Assembly (NCBI RefSeq): GCF_004010195.1
Contig: NC_057757.1
Location: 2,793,546 to 2,853,060 of the forward strand
Reading direction: 5' to 3'
Length of the DNA stretch: 59,515 nucleotides
From: Chiloscyllium plagiosum
Lineage: Eukaryota
In this document: positions 9,413 through 27,378 of the stretch, piece by piece
Numbering within the stretch: position 1 is the stretch's first letter
Layout: each line of letters opens with the position of its first letter
The notes under the pieces: generated by a model
Told to the model about the DNA's origin: nothing
The model's input: only the letters and a program-made list of their open reading frames with translations
Database searches by the model: none
Translations under genes and position numbers: made by a program

Positions 9413-9683
9413 GGGTAACTGGGATTGGCAGCTTCATTTTCCTCCCAATGTGGACCCGCTCCCCTCAGACCCACGTGCAGCTTGGAGATTCCCTCACTGC
9501 TCCCATCGGCATTGCCGCCCACTCCTCCTCAGTCAGCGCTGAGGGAGGGGCAAGAGAGAGAGAGAGAAGCTGCCGGGGGGAGCAGACAGAGGCGAGTCTG
9601 TCACGTCAGTGGGGAGACAGGCAAACCATTGCTTTGTTGCCTTCTTCCCCCGTCTCCCCCACAATGCTCCCTCCCTCCCTCCC

Positions 9684-9911
9684 TCACTTGGGCGAGTGCT
9701 GTTGTAAGGAGTTGTTACTGGACTGGCTCTTGCTTTCTGACGTGGAGGGCAGCGACACCACTATGTATTTCTGGGTGCTGCCAGTCACTGTGCTGCTGGG
9801 CGCAGTCTGAGAGGTAGACACCAGCTTGACGATCGGCTGAATGCTGGCCACCGTGGTGGTGACCGGTGACGTACTGCCTGTCCCACATGGAGTTGTCCTC
9901 AGTGTGATCAC
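9684..9911 (-). CDS. taf6: TAF6 terminal coding exon (VITLRTT...[11 protein letters not shown]...QKYIVVSLP...SPK*)
   Basis: Matches the vertebrate TAF6 C-terminus ([24 protein letters not shown]). Acceptor cccctcag at 9912-9914. TGA at 9684-9686. Confidence 0.9.
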
Positions 9912-10435
9912 CTGAGGGGGGGGAAAGCAAGGAGACAGAAAGGTAAACCCTCTTGTTGCTCCTGTATTAGGCTGCAACGATCAGGTAGCATCGGTGGAGA
10001 CAGAAACACTTTCAAGGCTGCTTTGACATCTTCAACGGGCCGACTCTAGGACTCCACGTTAAGCAAGCGAAACTCCGCCACCTCCAACACCCACTGCTGT
10101 GACTCACCGAGACTCTTCCTACACACCTTCTAAATCAAAGAAAGTGTCACCCCAAAGGACAAGGGCAGCAGGCACCTGGGAACACCGCTCCCCAGCTCCC
10201 CCCCTCCCCACGTTCCCCTCACCATTCCGACTCGGAAAGGTACCTTCAATACCGCTGGGACAGAATCCTGCGACTCACTGGTGGCCTCCCGATTTTGAAG
10301 TCCATCGTAAATATGATCATTTGACAGAATTTGATCCTTTTCTCTTCCCCCTGGGGAAGTTTCCGGGGAAGTGGGTGGATATTTCCCAGCCTGAACTACC
10401 CCTCTCGAGGAGGTGGGGAGCTGGCTTCCTGAGTA

Positions 10436-10656
10436 CGGTCGGTTCTGATAATAACGCCATGGTTCTGTTCTCGCGCGATCCCGAAAATCGCGGGATAGCC
10501 GCACCGTTTAAACTAACGGGGGGGGGGGGGGGGAAATCGCGTCAGACTCAACACAAGGTAGGGAAACCTCGCACTTGGCAAAGAACACTTTAACCTCTTC
10601 AGTCGCGTTAAAGCCAACGCGCGCTGAAGAAACGCGGGTTACAGCAGAACCGACTG
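10436..10656. mobile_element. TcMar/Tigger-like MITE
   Basis: Imperfect TIRs CGGTCGGTTCTGATAATAACGC and GCGGGTTACAGCAGAACCGACTG, with TA on the left flank. Confidence 0.65.
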
Positions 10657-10856
10657 CAGCACCTGAGTGGCTTGTTTGGCCTTTCTGAGGGCAGTTAAGA
10701 GTCGACCCCGTCCTCCCCCCAGTGGGTCTGGATCACGCGTAGGTCAGACCTGGTAAGGACGGCAGATTTCCTGCCCCTGAGGAACACCAGGATGGGGATT
10801 TACGCCAAGTGCTAACGGCCGTTCCCAGGGTCGCCGCTCCCCCACGGTCGGCTCAC

Positions 10857-11057
10857 CTGCTGAGTGCTGGGGGAGGTAGAGCTGGAGGACATCACAATGT
10901 AGTTGGTCGGAGATGGGGACGACTGGGTCGGGGTGGATGGCCGGGTGAGCAGGGTCTGCATTGGCAGCGTGATGGAGCTCGGGACCTTGAAGATGCTGGG
11001 ACTGGTGGAGGGCTGCGACGACTGTGGGCTCTGGGAGATCGTCAGCGTGGGTCTTGG
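10857..11057 (-). CDS. taf6: TAF6 penultimate exon, copy B (67 aa)
   Basis: [67 protein letters not shown]. Acceptor ttgttacag, donor CAG|gtgagc, 201 bp, phase 0/0. Confidence 0.85.
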
Positions 11058-11342
11058 CTGTAACAATACACACACAGGAAACATCAAAAACACCGCTGCG
11101 TAGGGAACACTGAGTGGACCGTAAATGCCGCACAACAGGAATCTGACAACAGTCCTTGCTGGGTCAGGGGAGAGTTTTTGATCGATCAGCTGCACCTCCC
11201 CAGATCACTCACTTCCCCAAAGTACAGGCTGCTGCAACACAAACGGACGAGAGCGGTTTCCAAAGCGCAAACTTCTAAAACATGCATTGGCCCGTAGCAC
11301 CATCGCATCGTCAAAATCATGTCCACTGAGCAATTTTTATAC

Positions 11343-11666
11343 AGAGACATAGAAATGTACGCATGGAAACAGACCCTTCGGTCCAACCTGTCCATGCTGA
11401 CCAGATATCCCAACCCAATCTAGTCCCACCTGCCAGCACCCGGCCCATATCCCTCCAAACCCTTCCTATTCATATACCCATCCAAATGCCTCTTAAATGT
11501 TGTAATTGTACCAGCCTCCACCACTTCCTCTGGCAGCTCGTTCCATACACGTACCACCCTGAGGGACATGGATAAGATAATTAGACAAAGTCTTTTCCCT
11601 GGGGCATAGGTTTAGGGTGAGAGGGGCAAGATATAAAAGAGACCAAAAGGGCAACTTTTCTCGCAG
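11343..11666 (-). mobile_element. CR1 3' end with an inverted 5' segment (11560-11666)
   Basis: 11343-11560 is a CR1 tail on the minus strand. 11560-11666 is the immediately preceding CR1 segment on the plus strand. Confidence 0.8.
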
Positions 11667-11799
11667 TGTGAGTTCCGCACAGGAACGCAGCTATCGCGTT
11701 CTGGCAGAGCTGCCTGTACAGAGGGAGTGTCCTCTACTTGTGCACCACTTGTGGTAGGGGCACCCCCCCACTCCACTCCGGACACAGGGATATTCCACA

Positions 11800-12085
11800 C
11801 AGATCCACCCCTATACTATCCCTGTAATATCAGCATTTCCCATGGTTAACCCACCTGGGCACTATGGGACAATTTAGCACGGCCAATCCACCCTAACCTG
11901 CACATCCCTGGGCACTATGGGACAATTTAGTACGGCCAATCCACCTTTGGACCGTGGGAGGAAACCCACACAGACACGGGGAGAATGTGCAAACTCCACA
12001 CAGACAGTCACCCGAGGGTGGGCTTGAACCCGGGTCCCTGGCGCCGTGAGGCAGCAGCACCAACCACTGACACACCGCGCTGCCC
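11800..12085 (-). mobile_element. HE1/V-SINE
   Basis: tRNA-like head and V-domain (CVEFAHSPRVCVGF translation), about two 53-bp units. Confidence 0.85.
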
Positions 12086-12275
12086 CAACCCGACGCAATC
12101 TTGATTCTCGTCCCTGTCGGAAACCATGTTGCGGTCAGCGCTTTGCAATCTGGAAGGAAGCTTCGCAACGTTTCAGCGAAGGTTATCCCGCGCCCCCCCC
12201 ACCCCATCCCCCACCAACCTTCCCGGACGGAGAGGGGGAGGGTGACGGGGGGGAAGACGGGATCAGAGCCCCTAC

Positions 12276-12470
12276 CTGCTGCGTGCTGGACGAGCCGGAC
12301 GCCGAAGACATCATGATGAACTTGGTGGCCGGGGGCGATGCCTGAGTCGGGGTGGACGGCCGGGCAGAGACCAGAGTCTGCATGGGCAGCGTGATGGAGC
12401 TGGGCACCTTGATGATGCTGGGAGCCCGCGACGTCTGTGGGGACTGCGATATGGTCAGCGTGGACCGAGG
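12276..12470 (-). CDS. taf6: TAF6 penultimate exon, copy A (65 aa)
   Basis: [65 protein letters not shown]. Acceptor gttgttgcag, donor CAG|gtaggg, 195 bp, phase 0/0. Confidence 0.9.
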
Positions 12471-12959
12471 CTGCAACAACATCATACGCCCGAGTCAACA
12501 AAAAACAAATCAAAAACAGCACCGCCCTCTATCGCAGGCCGCGAGAACGCCTGGCCCTTGGGAGGCCCTTTGGTTTTTATAAACCACCCCCCCTCCCTGC
12601 TTTTCCCAACCACTTGGTGAGATAAAGCGTGATTAAACCATTACGACAGAGAGACAATGCGATTGCAAAACTCCCCCACAAGCAAAGCGCACCCAATCAA
12701 AATCTTGCAATAAGGACGAGATAATTTTATAGCTAACAGCTCAAATCTTCTCTGGAAGAAGAAACGCAGATAAATCCCCTCTGGCTGTGCAGATTCGTTT
12801 CCCACGTACACCAAAGCAGTTTAAAACAAAAAGATAAACCCACAGCAATCAATGGAATAAAGTGCACTCTGCTGTTCACCTCAACACTCCTCCATGACAA
12901 CATAAAAATGACTTGCATTGAGATAGCGCCTCCAAATATGGCATCTCCACTAATATATT

Positions 12960-13990
12960 GTTTCCACCAATCAATGGGCTGAAGGGTGGCAGATGGAGCT
13001 CAATCTGCATAAGTGTGAGGTCCTGCATTTTGGTAAAACACATAAGGGCAGGACGGATACAGTTAATGGGTAGCGTTGGAGAACACAGACACCTAGGGGT
13101 TCAGGTACATCATCCTTTCAGGTTTGCATCACATATAGACAGGGTGGTACAGAAGGCGTTATATCTTACCTTCACGGCTCAGACCTTTTGAGTGTAGGAC
13201 ACAGTGAGGGCTGCAGATGCTGGAGATCAGAGTAGAGTGTGGTGCTGGAAAAGCACAGCAGGTCACGCAGCATCCGAGGAGCAGGAGGATCGACGTTTCA
13301 GGCAAGAGCCCTTCATCCTAGTGAAAAGCTTAGGCCTGAAACGTCAATTCTCCTGCTCCTTGGACGCTGCCTGACCTGCTGTGCTTTTCCGGCACCACGC
13401 TCTCGACTTTGAGTACAAGAGTCGGGGGCGTCATGTTGAGGTTGTACAGGACATTGGTGAGGCCTCGTCTGGAGAACTGTCTCCAGTTCTGGTCCCCCAG
13501 TTATAGGGAGGTGATTATTAAACTGGAGAGGGTTCAGACGAGATTTACCAGGATGTTGCCGGGCCTGGAAGGTTTGAATTATTAGAGAGGCTGGATAGGC
13601 CAGGGCTGTTTTCCCTGGAGTGTAGGAGGCTGAGGGGTGACCTTATAGAGGTTTATAAAATCATGAGGGGCATGGATTAGGTGAATGGCAGGTGTCTTTT
13701 CCCAGGGGTGGGGGGATTTCAAGACACAGAGGGCATACTTTTAAAGGTGAGGGGAGAGAGATTTAAAAAAAGACATGAGGGCCTGTTGTTACACAGAGGG
13801 TGGTCTGTTGTGTGGAATGAAGGAAGAGGTGGATGTAGGGGCAGTTACAACCTTTAAAGACATTTGGATAAGTTCATGAACAGGAAAGGTTTGGAGGGAT
13901 ATGGGCCAGGAGCAGGCAGCTGGGATTAGTTAGGTTTGGGATTATGGTCGGCACGGACTGGACGGACCGAAAGGTCAGTTGGATGACACT
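12960..13990 (+). mobile_element. CR1 LINE 3' fragment with an inserted Penelope-derived palindrome (~13203-13407)
   Basis: CR1 RT C-terminal motifs (LVRPRLENC.QFWSP, LRGDLIEVYKIM). The insert has inverted arms gtggtgctggaaaagcacagcagg / cctgctgtgcttttccggcaccac. Confidence 0.85.
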
Positions 13991-14159
13991 CAGTCGTGTA
14001 GTCACTGAAAGGGGATTGGTGCGCAGCAAGATTCACCCGAAAACAGCAACGTGGCAATGATGAGGTGGCTCTTGGATGATGCCCACTGGATTGAAACTGG
14101 CCAGGGATCCTTTACTAAAGGACTGAACACTCTGGAGGTAGGGAGCATGTTTCTGCTGA

Positions 14160-14450
14160 TGGGTGAGTTTAAAAATAAGGGGGAGGCCATTTAGAACAGA
14201 GTTGAGGAGGAACGTCGTCACCCAGAGAGTGGTGGGTGTGTGGAATGCTCTGCCCCAGAGGGCAGTGGAGACCCAGTCTCTGGATACTTTCAAGAAAGAG
14301 ATGGATAGAGCTCTTAAAGATAGTGGAATCAAAGGTTATGGGGACAAGGCAGGAACAGGATACGGATTGTGGATGATCAGCCATGATCATAATGAATGGT
14401 GGTGCAGGCTCGAAGGGCCGAATGGCCAACTCCTGCACCTATTGTCTATT
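14160..14450 (+). mobile_element. CR1 LINE 3' end, second subfamily
   Basis: GRPFRTELRRNVVTQRVVGVWNALPQRAVE..LDTFKKEMDR. Confidence 0.85.
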
Positions 14451-14812
14451 GAAATGGTGGGGGGGGAACTGCTTAACCATGTCATAGGGCTGCTCACTGT
14501 CCAGCTCAACTGGCATGGCCTCGGTTTAATCTCTCAGGGGGAAGGGGGTGTTTACACGTCAGAGCAGTGCAGCAACACCAGGAGTGTCAGCTTCGCCTGT
14601 TGCAAAGCCTCTGGAATGCAGCCTGCTCCTGGACTCAAACGAGGGGGTACCCCGCTTGAGCTCGCTTGCGCGAGGCAGGGTCTGCACTGATTAAGCAGCC
14701 GCCCGCTGGCCGGAGAGAACCAGGAGCTGGGAAAGGAGATAGAAACAAAAGCCGACTGAGTAACCCCTCCCTACCAAGCGGCGCCAGACCAACGCGGGCC
14801 GCGCTCTCTCAC

Positions 14813-14986
14813 CTGGGTGATGGTCAGGGTGGTCCGGTTCACTTGCTGGGCCTGCATCGCTGCCTGGGCACGGGCCTTCACCACGTGGGTACATAGCATG
14901 GGGCCCAGGTACCCGTAGTCCACCTTGTAGGACTCCTGGTTGTCCGGAGGAGACCGGATCTTCGCCACGACCGGCGCGCAATGTTT
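14813..14986 (-). CDS. taf6: TAF6 exon ([17 protein letters not shown]...[10 protein letters not shown])
   Basis: 174 bp, acceptor ttcctcttccag, donor CAG|gtgaga, strong match to TAF6. Confidence 0.96.
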
Positions 14987-15571
14987 CTGGAAGAGGAAAT
15001 CGTCGCAACTTTACAAAAGGGGAACGCGGGCCAGAAGCTCAAAAACTGACCAAAGCGGTTTCAACAGCGAGTGGAAACGGGGGAGGAGGTGGGAGGGGGA
15101 TTGTTAGCAGGAGGTCGACACAGGGGACACAGTGTCCAACTGCAACTGCTCATGTGCAGATCCAGCCCAGGCTGTGGGATTGCACCTTCTGAATTATCAG
15201 CGCATATTGGTTCCCGCTTCAGAGATCTGGCACTCTTGCGGAAACCGTCCTGACGAGCGCAAGACAAAATACCGCTGATAGCATTTTGCTTTCGAAAAAC
15301 AGAGATGGCCTTAAACTCTTTGCAAAATCAAGGGTGGCAGGCTTTAGGACTCATTGCTTGGGCCTCAGAGGCAGCGCGGGGCTCAGTTCCAGACACTGTG
15401 ACAACGCTGCGACAGTAAGAGGTGTACGTTTTTTCCTGGTTGTTTTGGAGAAGGTTTGAGACCGATTCACGGAGTTCTCGACTTGGAGAGCTAGTAAACA
15501 GCCTGAGGGACCTTGTGGCTTTTTTTTTTAGAAAAAGGTTGGACCAACAGAAGCAGCCTGGTTAGACTATA

Positions 15572-18272
15572 AGACATAATAACAGAAATTGGGCTATTCA
15601 GCCCACCAAATCTGCTCCGCCATTCAATCACGGCTGGTAAGTTACCCAACCCCATTCTCCCACTTTCTCCCTGTAACCCTTGATACTCAAGAACCTACCT
15701 ATCTCAGTCTTAAGTTAAAAGTCACACAACACCAGGTTATAGTCCAACAGGTTTAATTGGAAGCACACTAGCTTTTGGAGCGACGCTCCTTCATCAGGTG
15801 ATCAGGTTGTCAATCACCTGATCAAGGAGCGTCGCTCCGAAAGCTGGTGCTTCCAATTAAACCTGTTGGACTATAACCTGGTGTTGTGTGATTTTTAAAC
15901 TTTTAAACCGCCAGAGATTCCCCGCTCTCTGGCTGAACACGTTTCTCCTTCTCTCCGTTCTAAAAGGTCTCCCCTTTACTCGAAGACTATGCCCTCAGGT
16001 CCTAGTCTCCCCGACCAATGGAAACATCTTCCCAACGGTCACTCTGTCCAGGTCATTCAGTATTCTGTAGGTTTCAACTAGATTCCCCTCCCCCCCCGCC
16101 ACCATCCTTCTAAACTTCATCGAGTCCAGAGTCCTCAAACGTTCCTCTTACATTAAGCTTTTCATTGCTGGGACCATTCTCTTGAACCTCCTTCAAACCC
16201 GCTCCTGGGCCAGTACATTCTTCCTGAGATATGGGGCCCAAAACTGCGCACAATACTCACTGACCAGAGCCTTATAGAGCCTCAGAAATATATGCCTGCT
16301 TTTATATTCAAGTCCTCTCAATATAAATGCCATCATTGCATTTGCATTCCTAACTACTGACTCAACCTGCAAGTTCACCTCGAGAGAATCCAGGGCTGGA
16401 ACTCCCCGAGTCTCGTTGCACTTCTGAATTTTCTCCCCATTGAGAAACAGTCCATGCCTCTGTTCTTCTTAGAGAAGTGCATGAGCTCACACTTCCCCAC
16501 ATTGTAATCCATCTATCATTTCTGTGCCCTCTCTCCCAACCTGTCCACATCCTCCTGCAGCCTCCCTGCCTCCTCAATGCTACCTGTCCCTTTTCATAGC
16601 TTTGTATCATCTGCAAACGGAGCCAGAATGCCCTCAATTCCTTCATCCAGATTGTTATAATGAATACAGTGAGCTTTGTGGCACACACCACTGGTCACCG
16701 GCTGCCATCCTGAATAGGACCCTTTTATCCCCACTCTCTGTCAGACAGCCAGGCTTCTCTCCATGCTAGCACCTTGCCTCTAACACCATGGGGCCCTTAT
16801 CTTACTCAGCAGCCTCCTGGGCAGCACCTTATCAAAGGCCTTCTGGAAGTCCAAGTAGATAACATCCATTGGCTCTCCTTGGTCTAACCTGATCATTACC
16901 ACCTCAAAGATTTGTCAGGCATGACCTCCCCTTGCTGACTTTGCCCTATTTTACCAAACACTTCCAAGTATTCAGAAATCTCATCCTTCACAATGGGCTC
17001 CAGGATCTTACCGAGGTTAGGCTAATCGGTCTGTAACTTCCCATCTTTTGTCTAACTCCCTTTTTAAACAGGGGTGTCACTTTAGCGATTTTCCAGTCCT
17101 CTGGGACCCTCCCTGATTCTAGCAATTCCTAAAAGATCACCACTAAGACCTCCACCATCTCTTCAGCTATCTCTCTTCAAACTCTGGAGTGTAGTCCATC
17201 TGGTCCAGGTGATTTACCCACCTTCAGGCCATTCCGTTTTTCTAGCATCTTCTCCTTGGTGATAGCCACCATATTCAGCTCTAGCCCCTCACTCTCCTGA
17301 ATCTTTGGGATATTACTCGAATCCTCCACTGTGAAGGCTGACACAGAGTAATTATTGAGTTCCTCAGCCATTTCCTTGTTCCCCACTAATACCTCTCCAG
17401 GTATTAGTCCACTTTTGCCCTGTATATATCAAAAGAAGCTCTTACAATCTTCTTGTATATTACTGGCTAGCTGACCCTCATATTTAATCTTCTCCCTCCT
17501 TATTTCTTTTCTTGTTGCCCTCTGTTGTTCTGTGTAAGCTTCCCAACCCTCTGTGTTTCCCACTGCTCTTCGCCACATTACATGCTCTCTCTTTTCTTGT
17601 TATGCTGTCCCTGACTCCCCTGGTCAGCCTTGGCTGCCTCATCCTCCCTGTACCATGCTTCTTTTTCCTCTGCTGTGTCTCCAGAATTCCTCCTCGAATC
17701 TGCTGCCATTGTTGTCCCACTGCCTTTCCTGCTGGGCTCCTCCCCCAGTCAGTTCTACCCAGCTCCTCCCTCATGCCTCTGTAGCTGCCCTCACTCTGCT
17801 GTAATCCTGTTACCTCTGATTCTAGCTGCTCCCTCTCAAACTGCAGAGTAAATTCGATCATATTATGGTCACTGCCTCCTAAGTAGTTCCTTCACTTTCA
17901 GCTCCCTTATCACGCTTGCTTCATTGCTACAACACTAAATCCAGTATTGCCTGCTCCCCAGTGGGCTCCACCACAAGCTGCTCCAAAAAAGCCATCTCAT
18001 AGATATTCCACAAATTCCTTTTCTTGTGAACCACCACCAGCCAGATTTTCCCAGCCCACCTGCATACAGGAATTCCCCGTGATCACTGTCACTTTGTCTT
18101 CCCTAGACATCTCGTCTACCTCCTGGCATATCTTGCGCCCCAGCTCCTGACTAGTCCATAACTCCAGCTGGGGCTCTTTCTAACCACTGCGGTTCCTCAA
18201 TTCTACCCTCACAGATTCTACACCAGCTGACCCTACTTCGTTCCTTACTATTGATTTCATTTCATTTCTTAC
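15572..18272 (-). mobile_element. Long decayed CR1 LINE fragment (endonuclease end to 3' UTR)
   Basis: Minus-strand remnants MAEELNNY..AFTVED, KSPGPDGLH, LYKALV..EYCAQFWAPYLRK. Confidence 0.9.
15712..15902. mobile_element. Palindromic Penelope-derived element inserted in the CR1
   Basis: Inverted arms of about 90 bp around a short spacer. Same family as 20550-20781. Confidence 0.75.
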
Positions 18273-18335
18273 CGGTTGTATCAGTTATTCTGTTAAGTTT
18301 TCCAATAGAGTTAGGTTATTCCAAACTCTTTTTAC

Positions 18336-18640
18336 AGAATCCCTAGAGTGTGGAAACAGGCCCTTTGGCCCAACAAGTCCACACCGACCCTCTGAAGAGT
18401 AACCCACTCAGACCCATTCACTTACCACTATATTTTACCTGGGACCAAGGCAATTAACCTACCCATCCCCGAACACTATGGGGCAATTTAGCACGGCTAA
18501 TCCATCCTAAACTGTGCCTCTTTGGACTATGGGAGGAAATCCATGCAGACACGGGGAGAATGTGCAAACTCCACACAGACAGTTGCCAGAGGTGGGAATC
18601 GAACCCGGGTCCCTGGCTCTGTGAGCCATTGTGCCACCCC
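18336..18640 (-). mobile_element. HE1/V-SINE
   Basis: Tail, V-domain and partial head. Confidence 0.85.
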
Positions 18641-19036
18641 TCATTCTGTTATAATGCCCGTTTTGTCAATGCAAACGCGCTGTTATCCGAATGATGGACT
18701 GGGGACACAGTTTCTACAGCGTGAACCTTTAGAACGGGTGTTGGCTGTTACACTTTCAGCACCATTTGTAAAGTGCAATGTTTCTATAATGTGAGGTCGC
18801 ATAAAAACACAACCATGGTGTTACAGAAGACCTGACTGCAACTTAAAGAGAAGTAAATTCAGGGGGAAACGGGACTGCCCTGCACTGGCGCGATGGGTCA
18901 AATGGCCACCGGCAGTAAAACACAGTGCATTTGAAGTTTGGCAGACAATCCTGCAGTGCCCCAGAGACACAAAGCTCACCTTTCACTCCCTGAGTCAAAG
19001 GCAGCTGCTGAAGGAAGTCTTCCCTGGGCCACCTAC

Positions 19037-19162
19037 CAGTAAGAGGTTCTGGACGTGATCCGCTCCAATCTTGTCGATATTACTGACGACAGGTCCCTCG
19101 AGTACAGCTCGGATTCGCTCCCCTTCAATCTGCAGCCTCTGGATGATCAGGGTCTTTATCAC
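19037..19162 (-). CDS. taf6: TAF6 exon ([42 protein letters not shown])
   Basis: 126 bp, acceptor gctaacag, donor CTG|gtaggt. Absent from the ORF track and translated by hand. Confidence 0.96.
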
Positions 19163-19242
19163 CTGTTAGCGTTTTGCCAATGGCGTTTGGTTAATGGGAA
19201 TGCTTGAGTTTAGACAGAGGTTTTACACAATGTGCAACATGA

Positions 19243-19545
19243 TTAGAATCCCCTACAGTGTGGAAACAGGCCCTTCAGCCCAACAAGTCCACACTGACCC
19301 TCCGAAGAGTAACCCACCCAGACCCATTTCCCTCTGACTAATGCACCCAAAACTATGGGACAATCCAGCACGGCCAATCCACCCTAACCTGCACATCTTT
19401 GGATTGTGGGAGGAAACTGGAGCACCCGGAGGAAACCCACGTAGACACTGGGAGAACGTGCAAACTCCACACAGACAGTCACCCCGAGGGTGGGATCGAA
19501 CCCGGGCCCCTGGCGCTGAGAGGCAACCACTAAGCCACCTGCCAC
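19243..19545 (-). mobile_element. HE1/V-SINE, near full length
   Basis: Head, V-domain and ..ctgtaggggattctaatc tail. Confidence 0.9.
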
Positions 19546-20549
19546 CCCCTACAAACCTGCATCTCAGCAAGGCTCCTCTACTTTACAAACATGTGGCCTC
19601 TATCCCCTACACCCCCCAAAGTACAAAGGCAGCAGGTACATCGCAAGCTGCACCTGAGTCGCTCAGCACCCTGCCCCTGCTCGAAACCACGTCACTGCCC
19701 CCTTTGCTGGGTTGGCACGGTGGCCGAGTGGTTACCACCTGCTGCCTCTCAGTGCTGGGGACCCAGTTCGATTCCAGCTTAGCAGTGGCGGAGCACTGCA
19801 ATGCCACGTCTGTCTGCACACGCGCGCTTACTGCTCCCAGCGGGCGACGACAGTAAGGTCAAGCGCAGGCCCTGAAACAAACCAGCAGTTTGTCACCACC
19901 TTCTCGAGAGTAATCAGCCACGGGGAACAACCGCGGGGCCCACACTCCCACCCCCGGAGCAAACCTTCAAGAACTTGAAATGAAAACCAGAAGTGCTGGA
20001 GAAACCCAGCAGGTCTGGTAACATCAGTGGGAAGAAAGCAGTTACCATTCCGAGACTTATCGGGAGGAGGAAACTGACATTTGAGAGCATTCAGACTGTC
20101 AGATAAGACAGAAGGGAGATTAAAAAGCAAGGCTGCGTTTTTAAATTGAAGGTTTGTACCATAAATTTAAGATAGAGTGAATGCTGTTCGAAACTGAAGC
20201 CTTTGTGTATGCGACTAGATGGCAGTCCCAGAGTGGACTGGAAAATTGAAAATACCTAACATTCGGCTACAAAACGGATACTTCGAGTTTTGGTTGCTGA
20301 TTTGACAGCAATTCGAATTTAAGCAGTTTAAATTATACCCCAGGATACTAAAACCCAATCGAGTTTGAATTGATTAGTTTGTCATCATTGAACAATGAGA
20401 CGATCTGATGTCGGGGATATAAAAATGCAGGCATTTCGAAAATCAGACAGAGCAACTGCCATCAACACAGACCCAAGACGTTAAGAAACACTCTCTACCA
20501 AAGGTATCTCTTCATACTCGCAGTAAAAAGATAGATGATGACCCAGGGA

Positions 20550-20781
20550 TGATTTGGAGGTGCCGGTGTTGGACTGTGGTGGACAAAGTTAAAAATCGCA
20601 TAAGACCAGGTTACAGTCCAACCAGTTTATCTGGAAGCACTAGCTTTCGGAGCGCTGCTCCTTCATCAGGTGGTTGTGAGAACTCCACAACCACCTGATG
20701 AAGGAGCGTCGCTCCGAAAGCTAGTGCTTCCAGATAAACTGGTTGGACTGTAACCTGGTGGTGTGTGATTTTTAACTTTGT
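20550..20781. mobile_element. Palindromic Penelope-derived element with a 12-bp target-site duplication
   Basis: ATGACCCAGGGA at 20538-20549 and 20782-20793. Inverted arms of about 95 bp. Confidence 0.85.
20638..20726. ncRNA. Divergent pair of minimal hammerhead motifs (20638-20672 minus, 20692-20726 plus)
   Basis: CAC-CTGATGA-A-GGAGC-nnn-GCTCC-GAAAG-CTA-GTG on each strand. Confidence 0.55.
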
Positions 20782-21349
20782 ATGACCCAGGGAGATCCTC
20801 AGCAGGAAGACGACAGATACTGAAGACATCCGGCTTTAAAACGAATTTAATTAAGTAATTTAATAAGTGTTTTATAGGAACAGCATGTTGTTATAGAGTT
20901 GGAGGCAGGTAACAAACTGTTAAGAAGTTGGGGGAGGAGCTTAGAGTTGTTATTTCATGTTCACTTTTAGAGTTAAAGAATAAATTGAAGTTTTTTTTAA
21001 AGAGTGGAATTTGGGACTTCTCTGTCACTCACATTCTACCAGATTATGAGGCGGGGGGAGCTGGGTTTTTCTGAGTGTTTGGTTTAATTAACAGAGGGGT
21101 TGACCGCCCTGCTGTAACAGTAGCTTCCAGCTTAAAAACGGGCTACAACGACCATTTAACATTTTGAGCTTTAGCTAACCCAGCCTCGTTGAAGTGACTC
21201 GCACAGCCTGCAGCTTTCAAAGCAACACCCTTTCCAGAGCACCGACTGGAAGAGACTGACGTGGGGAAGTGCGGAGTGCCAGGGTTTCACTGGCCAGATA
21301 TATCAGGGGCTCGGGGGGGTGGGAGGGGGAGCGGCGTTCAAATACTCAC

Positions 21350-21424
21350 ATCGTGGCCGAGCTCAGCCAATCCTGCGATGCAGCCGTACCTGGTCGTCCA
21401 GGGGGTCTTGTCATCCAGCCAACT
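21350..21424 (-). CDS. taf6: TAF6 exon ([25 protein letters not shown])
   Basis: 75 bp, acceptor ctgtttcag, donor GAT|gtgagt. Confidence 0.96.
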
Positions 21425-21886
21425 CTGAAACAGTAACCAAGAGAGAGACTGCGTCACACGGGCAGCTCCCAGTGACAACTCTCTGGCCCTGGCTCGGTGC
21501 ACACCAGCTTCCGTTTAACTTCTCGAGCTGCGCCCTGACCCAGGGCAATTTCTCCATTCCCATCTTGCTTTAGAGATCACTACCTCGTGAACCCTTTCCA
21601 GATGCTACAAACTCTCAGCTCCCCCCCCCCACCAGGCTCCTGCAACCCTGCCCACTTTCTTTGCATTCTTATACCTGCCAGACACATTCCCCCGTTCCAT
21701 CACTGGTAGCCAGCTCCCTTCAAGTTGTCTGAACCCTCACCTCCAACCCCCCCCCCTCCAAGACACCCGCAGACTCCTCTGTCTGTCCCCGACCCATAGT
21801 AACGGCATGTCTGTTTGAGAACCCGCTCCATGGGGGGAGGGGTGTAGAGGGAACCCTCTCACTGATGGCCACGGGGCCGGCCTTAC

Positions 21887-22054
21887 CTTGGTGAAGGTTT
21901 TGGTGATACGCGACTGGATGTTATTGGTGGTGGTGCTGAAGTTCTTGCAGATCTGTGCCATGAGGCGGGCGGCAAAGTCCCGGAGTGCCCAGTGGTTGTC
22001 CACATCCGGGCGGAGGCAGAGTTGGCGGCTGACGATGCAGGTCACCACCGCGGG
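21887..22054 (-). CDS. taf6: TAF6 exon, 5'-truncated as assembled ([30 protein letters not shown]...TKTFTK)
   Basis: Near-identical to the TAF6 HEAT-repeat region, donor AAG|gtaagg. The expected VHELI codons and the acceptor are absent. Confidence 0.92.
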
Positions 22055-22839
22055 GCCCCTCCCGCCCCGACGTGCCCAGCGCCTCCTTTACCCCGGTGAC
22101 ACATCCAGCTCTCTCCCATGGAACACCTCCCTGTCACTCCCACCCCATCTCTGCAGCTTCCTACCACCCTCCGGTCTTTTCCTTCTTTTCAAAGTTCAGT
22201 AACAGGACGTGGGCATTTATTGCTGGCTTCAGGCTGGAGTCACGTGTAGGTCAGACTGGGTAAGGACGGCGGTTTCCTTCTCGGAAGGATGTTAGTGACC
22301 CAGAGGGTTATTTCCAGGGACTGATGATGGTCATTGCTGTTCTCTTTATTTCAGATTGTGGGGCAGGAATTCCAAGGGGTCCCCACGACATGGCCTGGGC
22401 CTAACTGGGCTGTGGCAATGACACTGAGCCATCATCTCCCTCCCTCTCCCCATCTCTGATCCCAGTCTCCTGCACCATTCCCCACCTGGTCCCAGCTTCC
22501 CCCACACATCTCCCACCCCCAGTTTTAACTCCCGCACCGGTGACTGGCTGCACTGGCAGCTAACCGGGGGCCCAGATCTTTCTCCTCAAACCCTCTCCGC
22601 CCTCCCTCACGACGCTCTGTTAAAAACCCCACCCTGGGTGAGCCACCATCCTGCTGCCGCCTCCTAGTGGCCCCCTCCTCACTCTGCGGGGTGTTACATG
22701 CTGACAAAACATCGCTGGAGCACCCTGCGACGACTTGCCCATGCCAAAGGGCGCTACAGAAATGTAGCGGCTGATGAGAGCCACACCACTGGGCGCTGTG
22801 TAGTTATGTTTCCCCATGTTGCCAGTGGGACCCTCTTCA

Positions 22840-23175
<336 letters not shown>

Positions 23176-24120: not shown

Positions 24121-27100
24121 CAGAGAGAGAGAGACATGTAGAGCGAGAGAGAGAGACATGTAGAGCGAGAGAGAGAGACATGTAGAGCGAGAGAGAGAGA
24201 CATGTAGAGCGAGAGAGAGAGACATGTAGAGCGAGAGAGAGAGACATGTAGAGCGAGAGAGAGAGACATGTAGAGCGAGAGAGAGAGACATGTAGAGCGA
24301 GAGAGAGAGACATGTAGAGCGAGAGAGAGAGACATGTAGAGCGAGAGAGAGAGACATGTAGAGCGAGAGAGAGAGACATGTAGAGCGAGAGAGAGAGACA
24401 TGTAGAGCGAGAGAGAGAGACATGTAGAGCGAGAGAGACATGTAGAGCGAGAGAGAGAGACATGTAGAGCGAGAGAGAGAGACATGTAGAGCGAGAGAGA
24501 GAGACATGTAGAGCGAGAGAGAGAGACATGTAGAGCGAGAGAGAGAGACATGTAGAGCGAGAGAGAGAGACATGTAGAGCGAGAGAGAGAGACATGTAGA
24601 GCGAGAGAGAGAGACATGTAGAGCGAGAGAGAGAGACATGTAGAGCGAGAGAGAGAGACATGTAGAGCGAGAGAGAGAGACATGTAGAGCGAGAGAGACA
24701 TGTAGAGCGAGAGAGAGAGACATGTAGAGCGAGAGAGAGAGACATGTAGAGCGAGAGAGAGAGACATGTAGAGCGAGAGAGAGAGACATGTAGAGCGAGA
24801 GAGAGAGACATGTAGAGCGAGAGAGAGAGACATGTAGAGCGAGAGAGAGAGACATGTAGAGCGAGAGAGAGAGACATGTAGAGCGAGAGAGAGAGACATG
24901 TAGAGCGAGAGAGAGAGACATGTAGAGCGAGAGAGAGAGACATGTAGAGCGAGAGAGACATGTAGAGCGAGAGAGAGAGACATGTAGAGCGAGAGAGAGA
25001 GACATGTAGAGCGAGAGAGAGAGACATGTAGAGCGAGAGAGAGAGACATGTAGAGCGAGAGAGAGAGACATGTAGAGCGAGAGAGAGAGACATGTAGAGC
25101 GAGAGAGAGAGACATGTAGAGCGAGAGAGAGAGACATGTAGAGCGAGAGAGAGAGACATGTAGAGCGAGAGAGAGAGACATGTAGAGCGAGAGAGAGAGA
25201 CATGTAGAGCGAGAGAGACATGTAGAGCGAGAGAGAGAGACATGTAGAGCGAGAGAGAGAGACATGTAGAGCGAGAGAGAGAGACATGTAGAGCGAGAGA
25301 GAGAGACATGTAGAGCGAGAGAGAGAGACATGTAGAGCGAGAGAGAGAGACATGTAGAGCGAGAGAGAGAGACATGTAGAGCGAGAGAGAGAGACATGTA
25401 GAGCGAGAGAGAGAGACATGTAGAGCGAGAGAGAGAGACATGTAGAGCGAGAGAGAGAGACATGTAGAGCGAGAGAGACATGTAGAGCGAGAGAGAGAGA
25501 CATGTAGAGCGAGAGAGAGAGACATGTAGAGCGAGAGAGAGAGACATGTAGAGCGAGAGAGAGAGACATGTAGAGCGAGAGAGAGAGACATGTAGAGCGA
25601 GAGAGAGAGACATGTAGAGCGAGAGAGAGAGACATGTAGAGCGAGAGAGAGAGACATGTAGAGCGAGAGAGAGAGACATGTAGAGCGAGAGAGAGAGACA
25701 TGTAGAGCGAGAGAGAGAGACATGTAGAGCGAGAGAGACATGTAGAGCGAGAGAGAGAGACATGTAGAGCGAGAGAGAGAGACATGTAGAGCGAGAGAGA
25801 GAGACATGTAGAGCGAGAGAGAGAGACATGTAGAGCGAGAGAGAGAGACATGTAGAGCGAGAGAGAGAGACATGTAGAGCGAGAGAGAGAGACATGTAGA
25901 GCGAGAGAGAGAGACATGTAGAGCGAGAGAGAGAGACATGTAGAGCGAGAGAGAGAGACATGTAGAGCGAGAGAGAGAGACATGTAGAGCGAGAGAGACA
26001 TGTAGAGCGAGAGAGAGAGACATGTAGAGCGAGAGAGAGAGACATGTAGAGCGAGAGAGAGAGACATGTAGAGCGAGAGAGAGAGACATGTAGAGCGAGA
26101 GAGAGAGACATGTAGAGCGAGAGAGAGAGACATGTAGAGCGAGAGAGAGAGACATGTAGAGCGAGAGAGAGAGACATGTAGAGCGAGAGAGAGAGACATG
26201 TAGAGCGAGAGAGAGAGACATGTAGAGCGAGAGAGAGAGACATGTAGAGCGAGAGAGACATGTAGAGCGAGAGAGAGAGACATGTAGAGCGAGAGAGAGA
26301 GACATGTAGAGCGAGAGAGAGAGACATGTAGAGCGAGAGAGAGAGACATGTAGAGCGAGAGAGAGAGACATGTAGAGCGAGAGAGAGAGACATGTAGAGC
26401 GAGAGAGAGAGACATGTAGAGCGAGAGAGAGAGACATGTAGAGCGAGAGAGAGAGACATGTAGAGCGAGAGAGAGAGACATGTAGAGCGAGAGAGAGAGA
26501 CATGTAGAGCGAGAGAGACATGTAGAGCGAGAGAGAGAGACATGTAGAGCGAGAGAGAGAGACATGTAGAGCGAGAGAGAGAGACATGTAGAGCGAGAGA
26601 GAGAGACATGTAGAGCGAGAGAGAGAGACATGTAGAGCGAGAGAGAGAGACATGTAGAGCGAGAGAGAGAGACATGTAGAGCGAGAGAGAGAGACATGTA
26701 GAGCGAGAGAGAGAGACATGTAGAGCGAGAGAGAGAGACATGTAGAGCGAGAGAGAGAGACATGTAGAGCGAGAGAGACATGTAGAGCGAGAGAGAGAGA
26801 CATGTAGAGCGAGAGAGAGAGACATGTAGAGCGAGAGAGAGAGACATGTAGAGCGAGAGAGAGAGACATGTAGAGCGAGAGAGAGAGACATGTAGAGCGA
26901 GAGAGAGAGACATGTAGAGCGAGAGAGAGAGACATGTAGAGCGAGAGAGAGAGACATGTAGAGCGAGAGAGAGAGACATGTAGAGCGAGAGAGAGAGACA
27001 TGTAGAGCGAGAGAGAGAGACATGTAGAGCGAGAGAGACATGTAGAGCGAGAGAGAGAGACATGTAGAGCGAGAGAGAGAGACATGTAGAGCGAGAGAGA

Positions 27101-27293
27101 GAGACATGTAGAGCGAGAGAGAGAGACATGTAGAGCGAGAGAGAGAGACATGTAGAGCGAGAGAGAGAGACATGTAGAGCGAGAGAGAGAGACATGTAGA
27201 GCGAGAGAGAGAGACATGTAGAGCGAGAGAGAGAGACATGTAGAGCGAGAGAGAGAGACATGTAGAGCGAGAGAGAGAGACATGTAGAGCGAG
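24121..27293. repeat. 22-bp minisatellite CATGTAGAGC(GA)6 with a 260-bp higher-order period
   Basis: An 18-bp variant unit occurs at 24421, 24681, 24941 ... 27021. Confidence 0.97.
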
Positions 27294-27378
27294 GAGAGGG
27301 AGACAGACACAGAGAGAGGGAGACAGACACAGAGAGAGGGAGACAGACACAGAGAGAGGGAGACAGACACACAGAGAG
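27294..27378. repeat. 20-bp tandem repeat AGACAGACACAGAGAGAGGG, about 4 copies
   Basis: Read directly from the sequence. Confidence 0.9.

What the first reader, a model, noticed from the sequence alone, without database searches (positions are those of the whole stretch)
10857..12470. taf6 has two intact, diverged copies of its penultimate coding exon: candidate alternative or mutually exclusive exons in a core TFIID subunit
Seen: exons at 12276-12470 (195 bp) and 10857-11057 (201 bp) both encode the [12 protein letters not shown]...[13 protein letters not shown]...STQQ segment. My hand alignment gives about 48/68 identical columns. They differ by frame-preserving indels only (+3 and -1 codons), have no stops, keep canonical CAG acceptors and CAG|GT donors, and are both phase 0/0. 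Flanking introns show no obvious similarity, so this is not an assembly duplication. One UGCAUG (RBFOX motif) lies between them at 11281-11286, which alone could be chance. Known: human TAF6 has this segment once. Each copy keeps different human-like residues (A: LVSAR, TKFI; B: PRPT, IVMSSSS, PSTQQ). Inference: an old exon duplication kept under selection, allowing A, B or A+B isoforms that retune the Ser/Thr/Pro-rich tail. I cannot tell whether this has been described.
Basis: partly seen in the sequence, partly recalled or inferred. Interest (0 to 1): 0.78.

Follow-up and report, generated by a model that had tools for sequence, protein, structure and literature searches.

The report
Doubled tail exon in shark TAF6
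Sharks and rays carry two old, well-kept copies of one exon in TAF6, a core part of the machine that starts transcription; the RNA assemblies that could be read join both copies in a row instead of choosing one, so the duplication likely just lengthens the protein's flexible tail, and forms that skip one copy exist only as predicted minor variants in two species.

Summary
In detail: exons A (12276-12470) and B (10857-11057) are intact paralogous copies, 48/68 identical, phase 0/0, dN/dS 0.23. It is no assembly artefact and not special to this genome: A+B in tandem is annotated in 16 of 18 shark and ray species found (the other two have broken models) and in 0 of 176 other TAF6 records, chimaera included. 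All B copies form one clade (100/99). A is the ancestral-type copy; B fixed several changes and then froze. The mutually exclusive reading fails: two of three contig sets carry A>B>last exon in one contig, with no A-only join seen in the fully listed run; the third is unresolved. A-only and B-only forms appear only as predicted models in two lamniform sharks. The RBFOX motif is at chance level (P=0.31). Verdict: a lineage-specific, mostly co-included tandem exon duplication that lengthens TAF6's Ser/Thr-rich tail, likely doubling its short binding motifs. It is already in database gene models; I found no paper on it. A new example of a known process, of modest interest.

The parts
14813..14986 (-). 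taf6 exon U: last helix of the HEAT domain and start of the tail; ends in phase 0
   Evidence: last helix 444-480 in the model
12471..14812 (-). intron U-A, 2342 nt
   Evidence: GT..AG ends
12276..12470 (-). exon A, 195 nt, 65 aa: ancestral-type copy
   Evidence: its 3' end is joined to B in contigs of X1 and X5
11058..12275 (-). intron A-B, 1218 nt, spliced out in X1 and X5; long enough that both exons can be joined
11281..11286 (-). single UGCAUG, chance level
   Evidence: at least one in 31% of 1000 shuffles
10857..11057 (-). exon B, 201 nt, 67 aa: derived copy, one clade across sharks, rays and a skate
   Evidence: covered by contigs of X1, X5, X7
9912..10856 (-). intron B-C, 945 nt
   Evidence: joint skipping 945 nt in 3 of 3 contig sets
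9684..9911 (-). exon C coding part, 75 aa and stop; about 20-50 residues shorter than in chimaera and bony vertebrates
19037..23049 (-). four upstream taf6 exons for the HEAT domain (22948-23049, about 21887-22054, 21350-21424, 19037-19162)

Best explanation
A phase 0/0 exon of taf6 is present twice in sharks and rays, likely duplicated once in their common ancestor, and both copies are spliced in series (A then B) in the RNA assemblies that could be read, which lengthens TAF6's predicted-disordered Ser/Thr/Pro-rich tail and likely doubles the short hydrophobic motifs and modification sites through which that tail would bind partners. Shown: two intact copies, their spread, one B clade, purifying selection, A>B>C joining. 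Inferred: timing after the chimaera split; A kept the ancestral sequence while B fixed several changes (it lost an Arg and a Lys that are invariant in all A and single copies) and then froze; the gain is one of valency and length in an unstructured tail, not a new fold; skipping of either copy is at most minor.
For: Two copies in 29 of 35 elasmobranch records (16 of 18 species; galeomorph and squalomorph sharks, stingrays, manta, electric ray) and 0 of 176 other records. B clade 100/99 incl. a partial skate copy; 10 columns separate all 16 A from all 16 B. Mean identity among species: A 92.5%, B 93.6%, exon C 86%. A vs B dN 0.17, dS 0.75, ratio 0.23 (bootstrap 0.10-0.49); 4 of 4 listed differences of run X7 in B are silent. 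Run X1: one 1928-nt contig, depth 249.6, runs A>B>C; the only other contig entering exon C is intronic (depth 5.13); all 7 laid records are listed. Run X5: one 1955-nt contig with A ending at 1681 and B starting at 1682. Segment lies outside Pfam domains and after the last helix, pLDDT under 50 from 477 to 692. Ser+Thr after the HEAT domain: 80-87 in 16 elasmobranchs, 44-68 in 16 outgroups. [quoted passage not shown]
Against: A-only (625 aa) and B-only (627 aa) models exist for Carcharodon and Cetorhinus. In run X7 exon B is a contig of its own (depth 345.7 against 217.8 for the B>C joint), so paths branch at both ends, and only 8 of its 17 records are listed. Contigs drop rare variants; tissues are unknown and the runs are only guessed to be RNA; the raw-read run gave 3 reads, none exonic. 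The tree cannot date the event against chimaera (p-AU 0.605 and 0.543) and chimaera DNA was not searched. The fold is low-confidence overall (mean pLDDT 45, also under 50 at 81-276). No partner of this tail was found in print; the human TAF6 disordered region did not form droplets in one test (10.1101/2024.02.05.578926, passage). Sharks evolve slowly (PMC8455134, passages), which inflates identities.
Confidence: 0.62

Rival explanations
1. A and B are independent cassette exons whose skipping is regulated by tissue or stage, so that A+B, A-only and B-only TAF6 build different TFIID complexes.
For: Both single-copy forms are annotated in two lamniform families. Both exons are multiples of three in phase 0/0, so either skip keeps the frame. 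Exon B is bounded by branch points in run X7. B has its own fixed residues.
Against: No single-copy model among the records read for the other 14 species with whole models. In X1 98% of the contig depth entering exon C comes from B and no A>C contig is laid; X1 and X5 run unbranched through the B acceptor. RBFOX motif at chance level.
Confidence: 0.18
2. The duplication was fixed by drift and does nothing new: B is a tolerated spacer in a floppy tail and looks conserved because it is coding sequence in a slowly evolving lineage.
For: Symmetric exons in disordered regions duplicate readily (PMC3632108, abstract). Cartilaginous fishes have low substitution rates (PMC8455134, passages). No function of the segment was found in print.
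Against: B is as conserved as A and more than exon C of the same tail (93.6, 92.5, 86%); no species with a whole model has lost it (16 of 16); its diagnostic residues are fixed across sharks and rays; dN/dS 0.23.
Confidence: 0.15
3. The duplication is older than the chimaera split, and chimaeras lost B or carry it unannotated.
For: The tree does not reject A plus the chimaera copy as a clade without B (p-AU 0.543). Only two chimaera protein models were seen.
Against: Both chimaera models have one copy; A+B without chimaera is not rejected either and has the slightly higher likelihood; one gain is simpler than gain plus loss.
Confidence: 0.1
4. A and B are mutually exclusive exons.
For: Homologous, adjacent, similar in length, same phase.
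Against: Both are joined in one contig in X1 and X5 and in 29 of 35 records; a 1218-nt intron puts no steric block between them and joint inclusion keeps the frame.
Confidence: 0.02
5. The second copy is an assembly artefact.
For: The locus is poorly assembled: the 5' half of the gene lies on the other strand beyond an N gap.
Against: The copies differ at 46 of 192 aligned bases, mostly third positions, and both occur in 16 species.
Confidence: 0.01

Closest known systems
COE/EBF transcription factors, helix H2d-H2a (PMC2394523, abstract read)
   Same: Lineage-specific tandem duplication of one coding exon in a transcription regulator, with both copies included.
   Different: There the exon encodes a helix of a folded HLH motif and the event is vertebrate-wide; here it is a low-complexity tail segment, limited to elasmobranchs in the records seen, with possible minor skipping.
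Constitutively included tandem exon duplications of symmetric, disordered exons (PMC8373072, passages; PMC3632108, abstract)
   Same: Phase-symmetric exon, predicted disorder, joint inclusion as main outcome.
   Different: Those surveys are of human genes; 'TAF6' occurs 0 times in the main text of PMC8373072 and of PMC9013439; supplements were not read.
Tandem-exon substitutions / mutually exclusive homologous exons (PMC8373072)
   Same: Adjacent homologous exons of similar length and equal phase, kept for a long time.
   Different: Defined by one-or-other inclusion; here both are joined in the main form.
Known TFIID isoform diversity: TAF6delta (PMC4099370, passages) and human TAF8s (PMC12871804, abstract)
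   Same: Variation in a core TFIID subunit made at the level of exon use; TAF8s is lineage-specific too.
   Different: TAF6delta comes from an alternative 5' splice site in exon 2 and TAF8s from intronic polyadenylation; neither is an exon duplication and neither touches this tail segment.

Membership tests
TAF6 (TFIID subunit 6) | histone fold PF02969 plus HEAT domain PF07571, high identity to human TAF6 | tested here: met
   P0004, identical to the window in A and B, has both domains and matches human TAF6 chains at E=0; window exons match it at 95-100% for most exons
tandem exon duplication | adjacent homologous exons of one gene with the same phase and own splice sites | tested here: met
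tandem exon duplication | both copies under purifying selection | tested here: met
   dN/dS 0.23 between copies; 4 of 4 listed differences in B silent; protein conservation; no per-branch codon test across species
constitutively included tandem exons | both copies in the same transcript | tested here: met
   2 of 3 contig sets; 29 of 35 records
constitutively included tandem exons | no appreciable skipping in any tissue | tested here: inconclusive
   single-copy models in 2 species; X7 unresolved; no raw junction counts
mutually exclusive exons | never both in one transcript | tested here: not met
   A>B join in X1 and X5
mutually exclusive exons | an enforcing device: very short spacer, frame shift on joint inclusion, or competing pairings | tested here: not met
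   spacer 1218 nt, frame kept; no long pairing that covers both acceptors among the 25 longest of 45 inverted repeats shown; conservation of intron pairings across species not testable
regulated cassette exons | tissue- or stage-dependent inclusion | not testable with these tools
   runs carry no tissue labels and are kept as contigs; the raw-read run had no exonic reads

The most novel reading that the evidence does not exclude
B is a neofunctionalised copy of a vertebrate TAF6 binding module (two invariant basic residues removed, new aromatic residues fixed), and sharks and rays regulate skipping of A or B to build TFIID variants with different tails; since TFIID holds two TAF6 molecules, mixed complexes would be possible. 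The pair would be a natural experiment that exposes what the unexplained TAF6 tail binds.
Probability: 0.12. Interest if true: 0.6.

Novelty: new member of a known kind. Interest (0 to 1): 0.3.

Why it matters
It is a structural change in a core transcription factor shared by sharks and rays and absent from the other vertebrate records seen: a candidate molecular marker of elasmobranchs. The functions of TFIID's disordered regions are called unknown in a recent paper (10.1101/2024.02.05.578926, abstract); a module that was doubled, altered at fixed positions and then kept shows which residues matter and gives ready-made variants (A, B, A+B) for binding tests. The process itself is ordinary, and the main form is already in database gene models.

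Tried and rejected
The profile search of 1.84 billion representatives gave 29 hits and no second lineage with a doubled segment: of four multi-stretch hits one is the electric ray, one a kiwi TAF6 with a single copy on inspection, two are unrelated repeat proteins (one of them judged by name and E-value only). ESM Atlas gave no usable hit for the tail. No remnant of the longer ancestral C-terminus was found downstream in the window (best E 0.058). No Rfam match in the window. Tree tests could not date the duplication against chimaera. Literature: 10 searches; 'TAF6'+'exon duplication' 0 papers, 'TAF6'+'shark' 8 papers with no relevant title; none of the 25 listed of 62 holds 'TAF6'. Subscription journals are mostly not covered and no supplements were read. 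The position of O-GlcNAc sites on TAF6 could not be found; PMC11381892 (passages) says only that TAF6 has mapped sites and is an OGT interactor. PMC11370418 (passages) concerned TAF6L and was of no use. Earlier findings of the scan: none on this gene.

Full report
OBSERVATION. The proteins align at 48/68; of 64 aligned codons 28 are identical, 20 differ silently, 16 change the residue; first and second positions agree at 107/128, third at 39/64. Nei-Gojobori dN 0.171, dS 0.745, ratio 0.23 (bootstrap 0.10-0.49). The own genome has 2 matches, these two. Flanks do not align better than shuffles; the single UGCAUG is expected in 31% of shuffles. The gene is taf6, not TAF6L: window exons match shark TAF6 records, which carry PF02969 and PF07571 and match human TAF6 in the PDB over residues 1-543 and 592-680, the gap being the extra copy. 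The window's A, B and C are identical to a record named Chiloscyllium plagiosum (P0125), which may come from this same genome and is not independent.

SPREAD. Among 211 protein records held, 29 have two copies, all elasmobranch. The 35 elasmobranch records split into 29 A+B, 2 A-only, 2 B-only and 2 broken models (Chiloscyllium punctatum, A followed by unrelated sequence; the skate Rhinoraja, a B-type piece in a model lacking much of the HEAT domain). A+B is seen in 16 of 18 species: Chiloscyllium plagiosum, Hemiscyllium, Rhincodon, Stegostoma, Carcharodon, Cetorhinus, two Scyliorhinus, Mustelus, Heterodontus, Heptranchias, Pristiophorus, Hypanus, Hemitrygon, Mobula, Narcine. None of the other 176 records has two copies; they include two chimaera models, coelacanth, lungfish, sturgeon, paddlefish, bichir, gar, teleosts, amphibians, reptiles, birds and mammals. 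These are protein models, and each search lists only its best hits (120 of 127, 120 of 409, 53 of 53); an unannotated copy in genomic DNA would be missed. No lamprey record was seen.

HISTORY. In a tree of 16 A, 17 B and 18 single copies, all B rows form one clade (100/99); A and the chimaera copy are unresolved. So the duplication happened once, before sharks and rays parted, and there is no sign of later homogenisation. The tree cannot place it against the chimaera split (p-AU 0.605 for A+B, 0.543 for A+chimaera; partial skate row left out); the simplest reading is the elasmobranch stem, after about 420 million years ago (date from PMC8455134, passage). Divergence was lopsided: 10 columns separate all A from all B; in the 8 outside the indel region A has the majority outgroup residue in 7. 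B lost an Arg and a Lys that are invariant in 16 A and 18 single copies, gained a Phe, and lost one residue; A changed one Val to Met. Afterwards both froze: mean identity among 16 species 92.5% (A), 93.6% (B), against 86% for exon C and 64-81% between A and B within a species. Single copies are closer to A than to B in 18 of 18 outgroups. In run X7, a relative, the 4 listed differences in B are all silent (6 are counted, 4 listed), against 2 of 4 in exon C. Slow shark evolution (PMC8455134, passages) explains part of the high identity but not the gap to exon C.

SPLICING. Four runs were laid on 9500-11300. X1: a 1928-nt contig of depth 249.6 covers B, skips the 945-nt intron into C, and goes on beyond B's start with the 3' end of exon A; 1505 nt lie before A, enough for the whole upstream coding sequence (1455 nt). 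Exon C has depth 255.7 and its only other inflow is an intronic contig of depth 5.13; all 7 laid records are listed and none joins A to C. X5: a 1955-nt contig has A ending at letter 1681 and B starting at 1682, then C. X7: B is a contig of its own (depth 345.7), the B>C joint has 217.8, C 189.9; branches at both ends of B could be skipping, unspliced RNA or allelic variation, and only 8 of 17 records are listed. X19 (raw single-cell reads, about 2 in 100 read): 3 reads, none exonic. The three contig sets are only guessed to be RNA, though spliced joints show it; tissues are unknown and contigs drop rare forms. Thus mutual exclusion is refuted, co-inclusion is the main form where it could be read, and minor skipping stays open. 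The only positive sign of skipping is the pair of predicted models X2 (B-only, 627 aa) and X3 (A-only, 625 aa) beside X1 (A+B, 692 aa) in Carcharodon and Cetorhinus, both Lamniformes. That such models usually rest on RNA-seq introns is recalled, not checked.

HOW IT LIKELY WORKS. The segment begins just after the last HEAT helix (444-480) and has pLDDT under 50 throughout (weak evidence, as the model is poor elsewhere too); no Pfam family covers it; a structural paper takes the HEAT domain as residues 215-482 and says TAF6 is present in two copies in TFIID (10.1101/2023.04.05.535704, passages). The exon is a Ser/Thr/Pro-rich linker carrying three short hydrophobic stretches that are kept from shark to human (alignment). 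Such stretches in disordered regions usually act as binding motifs (general knowledge; no partner known to me or found). TAF6 is an OGT interactor with mapped O-GlcNAc sites (PMC11381892, passages; positions not seen). Doubling raises tail length from 154-192 to 207-221 residues and Ser+Thr from 44-68 to 80-87 (16 species each). The likely effect is more motif copies and more modification sites per TFIID, with B a less basic variant. This step is inference. In the same lineage the far C-terminus is shorter and lacks the [VI]K[QL]E motif (0 of 17 elasmobranchs, 12 of 16 outgroups, one record per species; that it resembles a SUMO consensus is recalled), so the tail was remodelled at both ends; whether the two changes are linked is unknown.

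COMPARISON AND NOVELTY. It works like other co-included tandem exon duplications, the common outcome according to PMC8373072 (passages), favoured for symmetric, disordered exons (PMC3632108, abstract); the nearest named case is the duplicated helix exon of vertebrate COE/EBF factors (PMC2394523, abstract). It fails the test for mutually exclusive exons. Known TFIID isoforms (TAF6delta, PMC4099370 passages; TAF8s, PMC12871804 abstract) arise otherwise. The A+B protein is already in RefSeq and UniRef models; ten searches of the open library found no paper that describes it, with subscription journals and supplements not covered. Verdict: real, old, conserved, elasmobranch-wide, mostly co-included; a new member of a known kind; interest 0.3.

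Noticed in passing
G000:C48:2777234-2785002 (L006, L007) and window 9684-23049: The 5' half of taf6 (residues 1-159) lies on the + strand just before the window, beyond an N gap, while the 3' half lies on the - strand in the window; RNA contigs are long enough for an unbroken coding sequence, so this is likely a local assembly inversion. Residues 160-265 were not found in either.
   Followed up: partly
window 9684-9700: Elasmobranch TAF6 stops 20 residues after the last conserved motif in most species (39-70 in outgroups) and lacks the [VI]K[QL]E motif; the stop codon sits in a donor-like site, and ray models show several alternative short tails starting at this point. X1 and X7 read through unspliced.
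   Followed up: partly
window 11368-11496 and 13853-13980: Two inverted repeat fragments (81% and 75% complementary over 90 and 51 nt) flank exon A and could loop it out in the pre-mRNA of this species; they look like retroelement pieces.
   Followed up: no
window 14813-14836, 12444-12467, 11031-11054: The end of exon U resembles the start of A and B (D5); this short protein repeat is present in all vertebrate TAF6 seen, a hint of an older small duplication.
   Followed up: no
window about 22040-22070: The first codons and the acceptor of one HEAT-domain exon seem missing from the assembly although protein records have them.
   Followed up: no
window 24123-27305 and 35289-37229: A 3.2-kb array of 22-nt units (97% matches) and a 1.9-kb array of 53-nt units; the 53-nt unit recurs at 2308, 4393, 23603 and 27898.
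   Followed up: no
protein P0035: A sturgeon record named as a calcium channel holds a piece of this TAF6 exon: a chimeric gene model.
   Followed up: no
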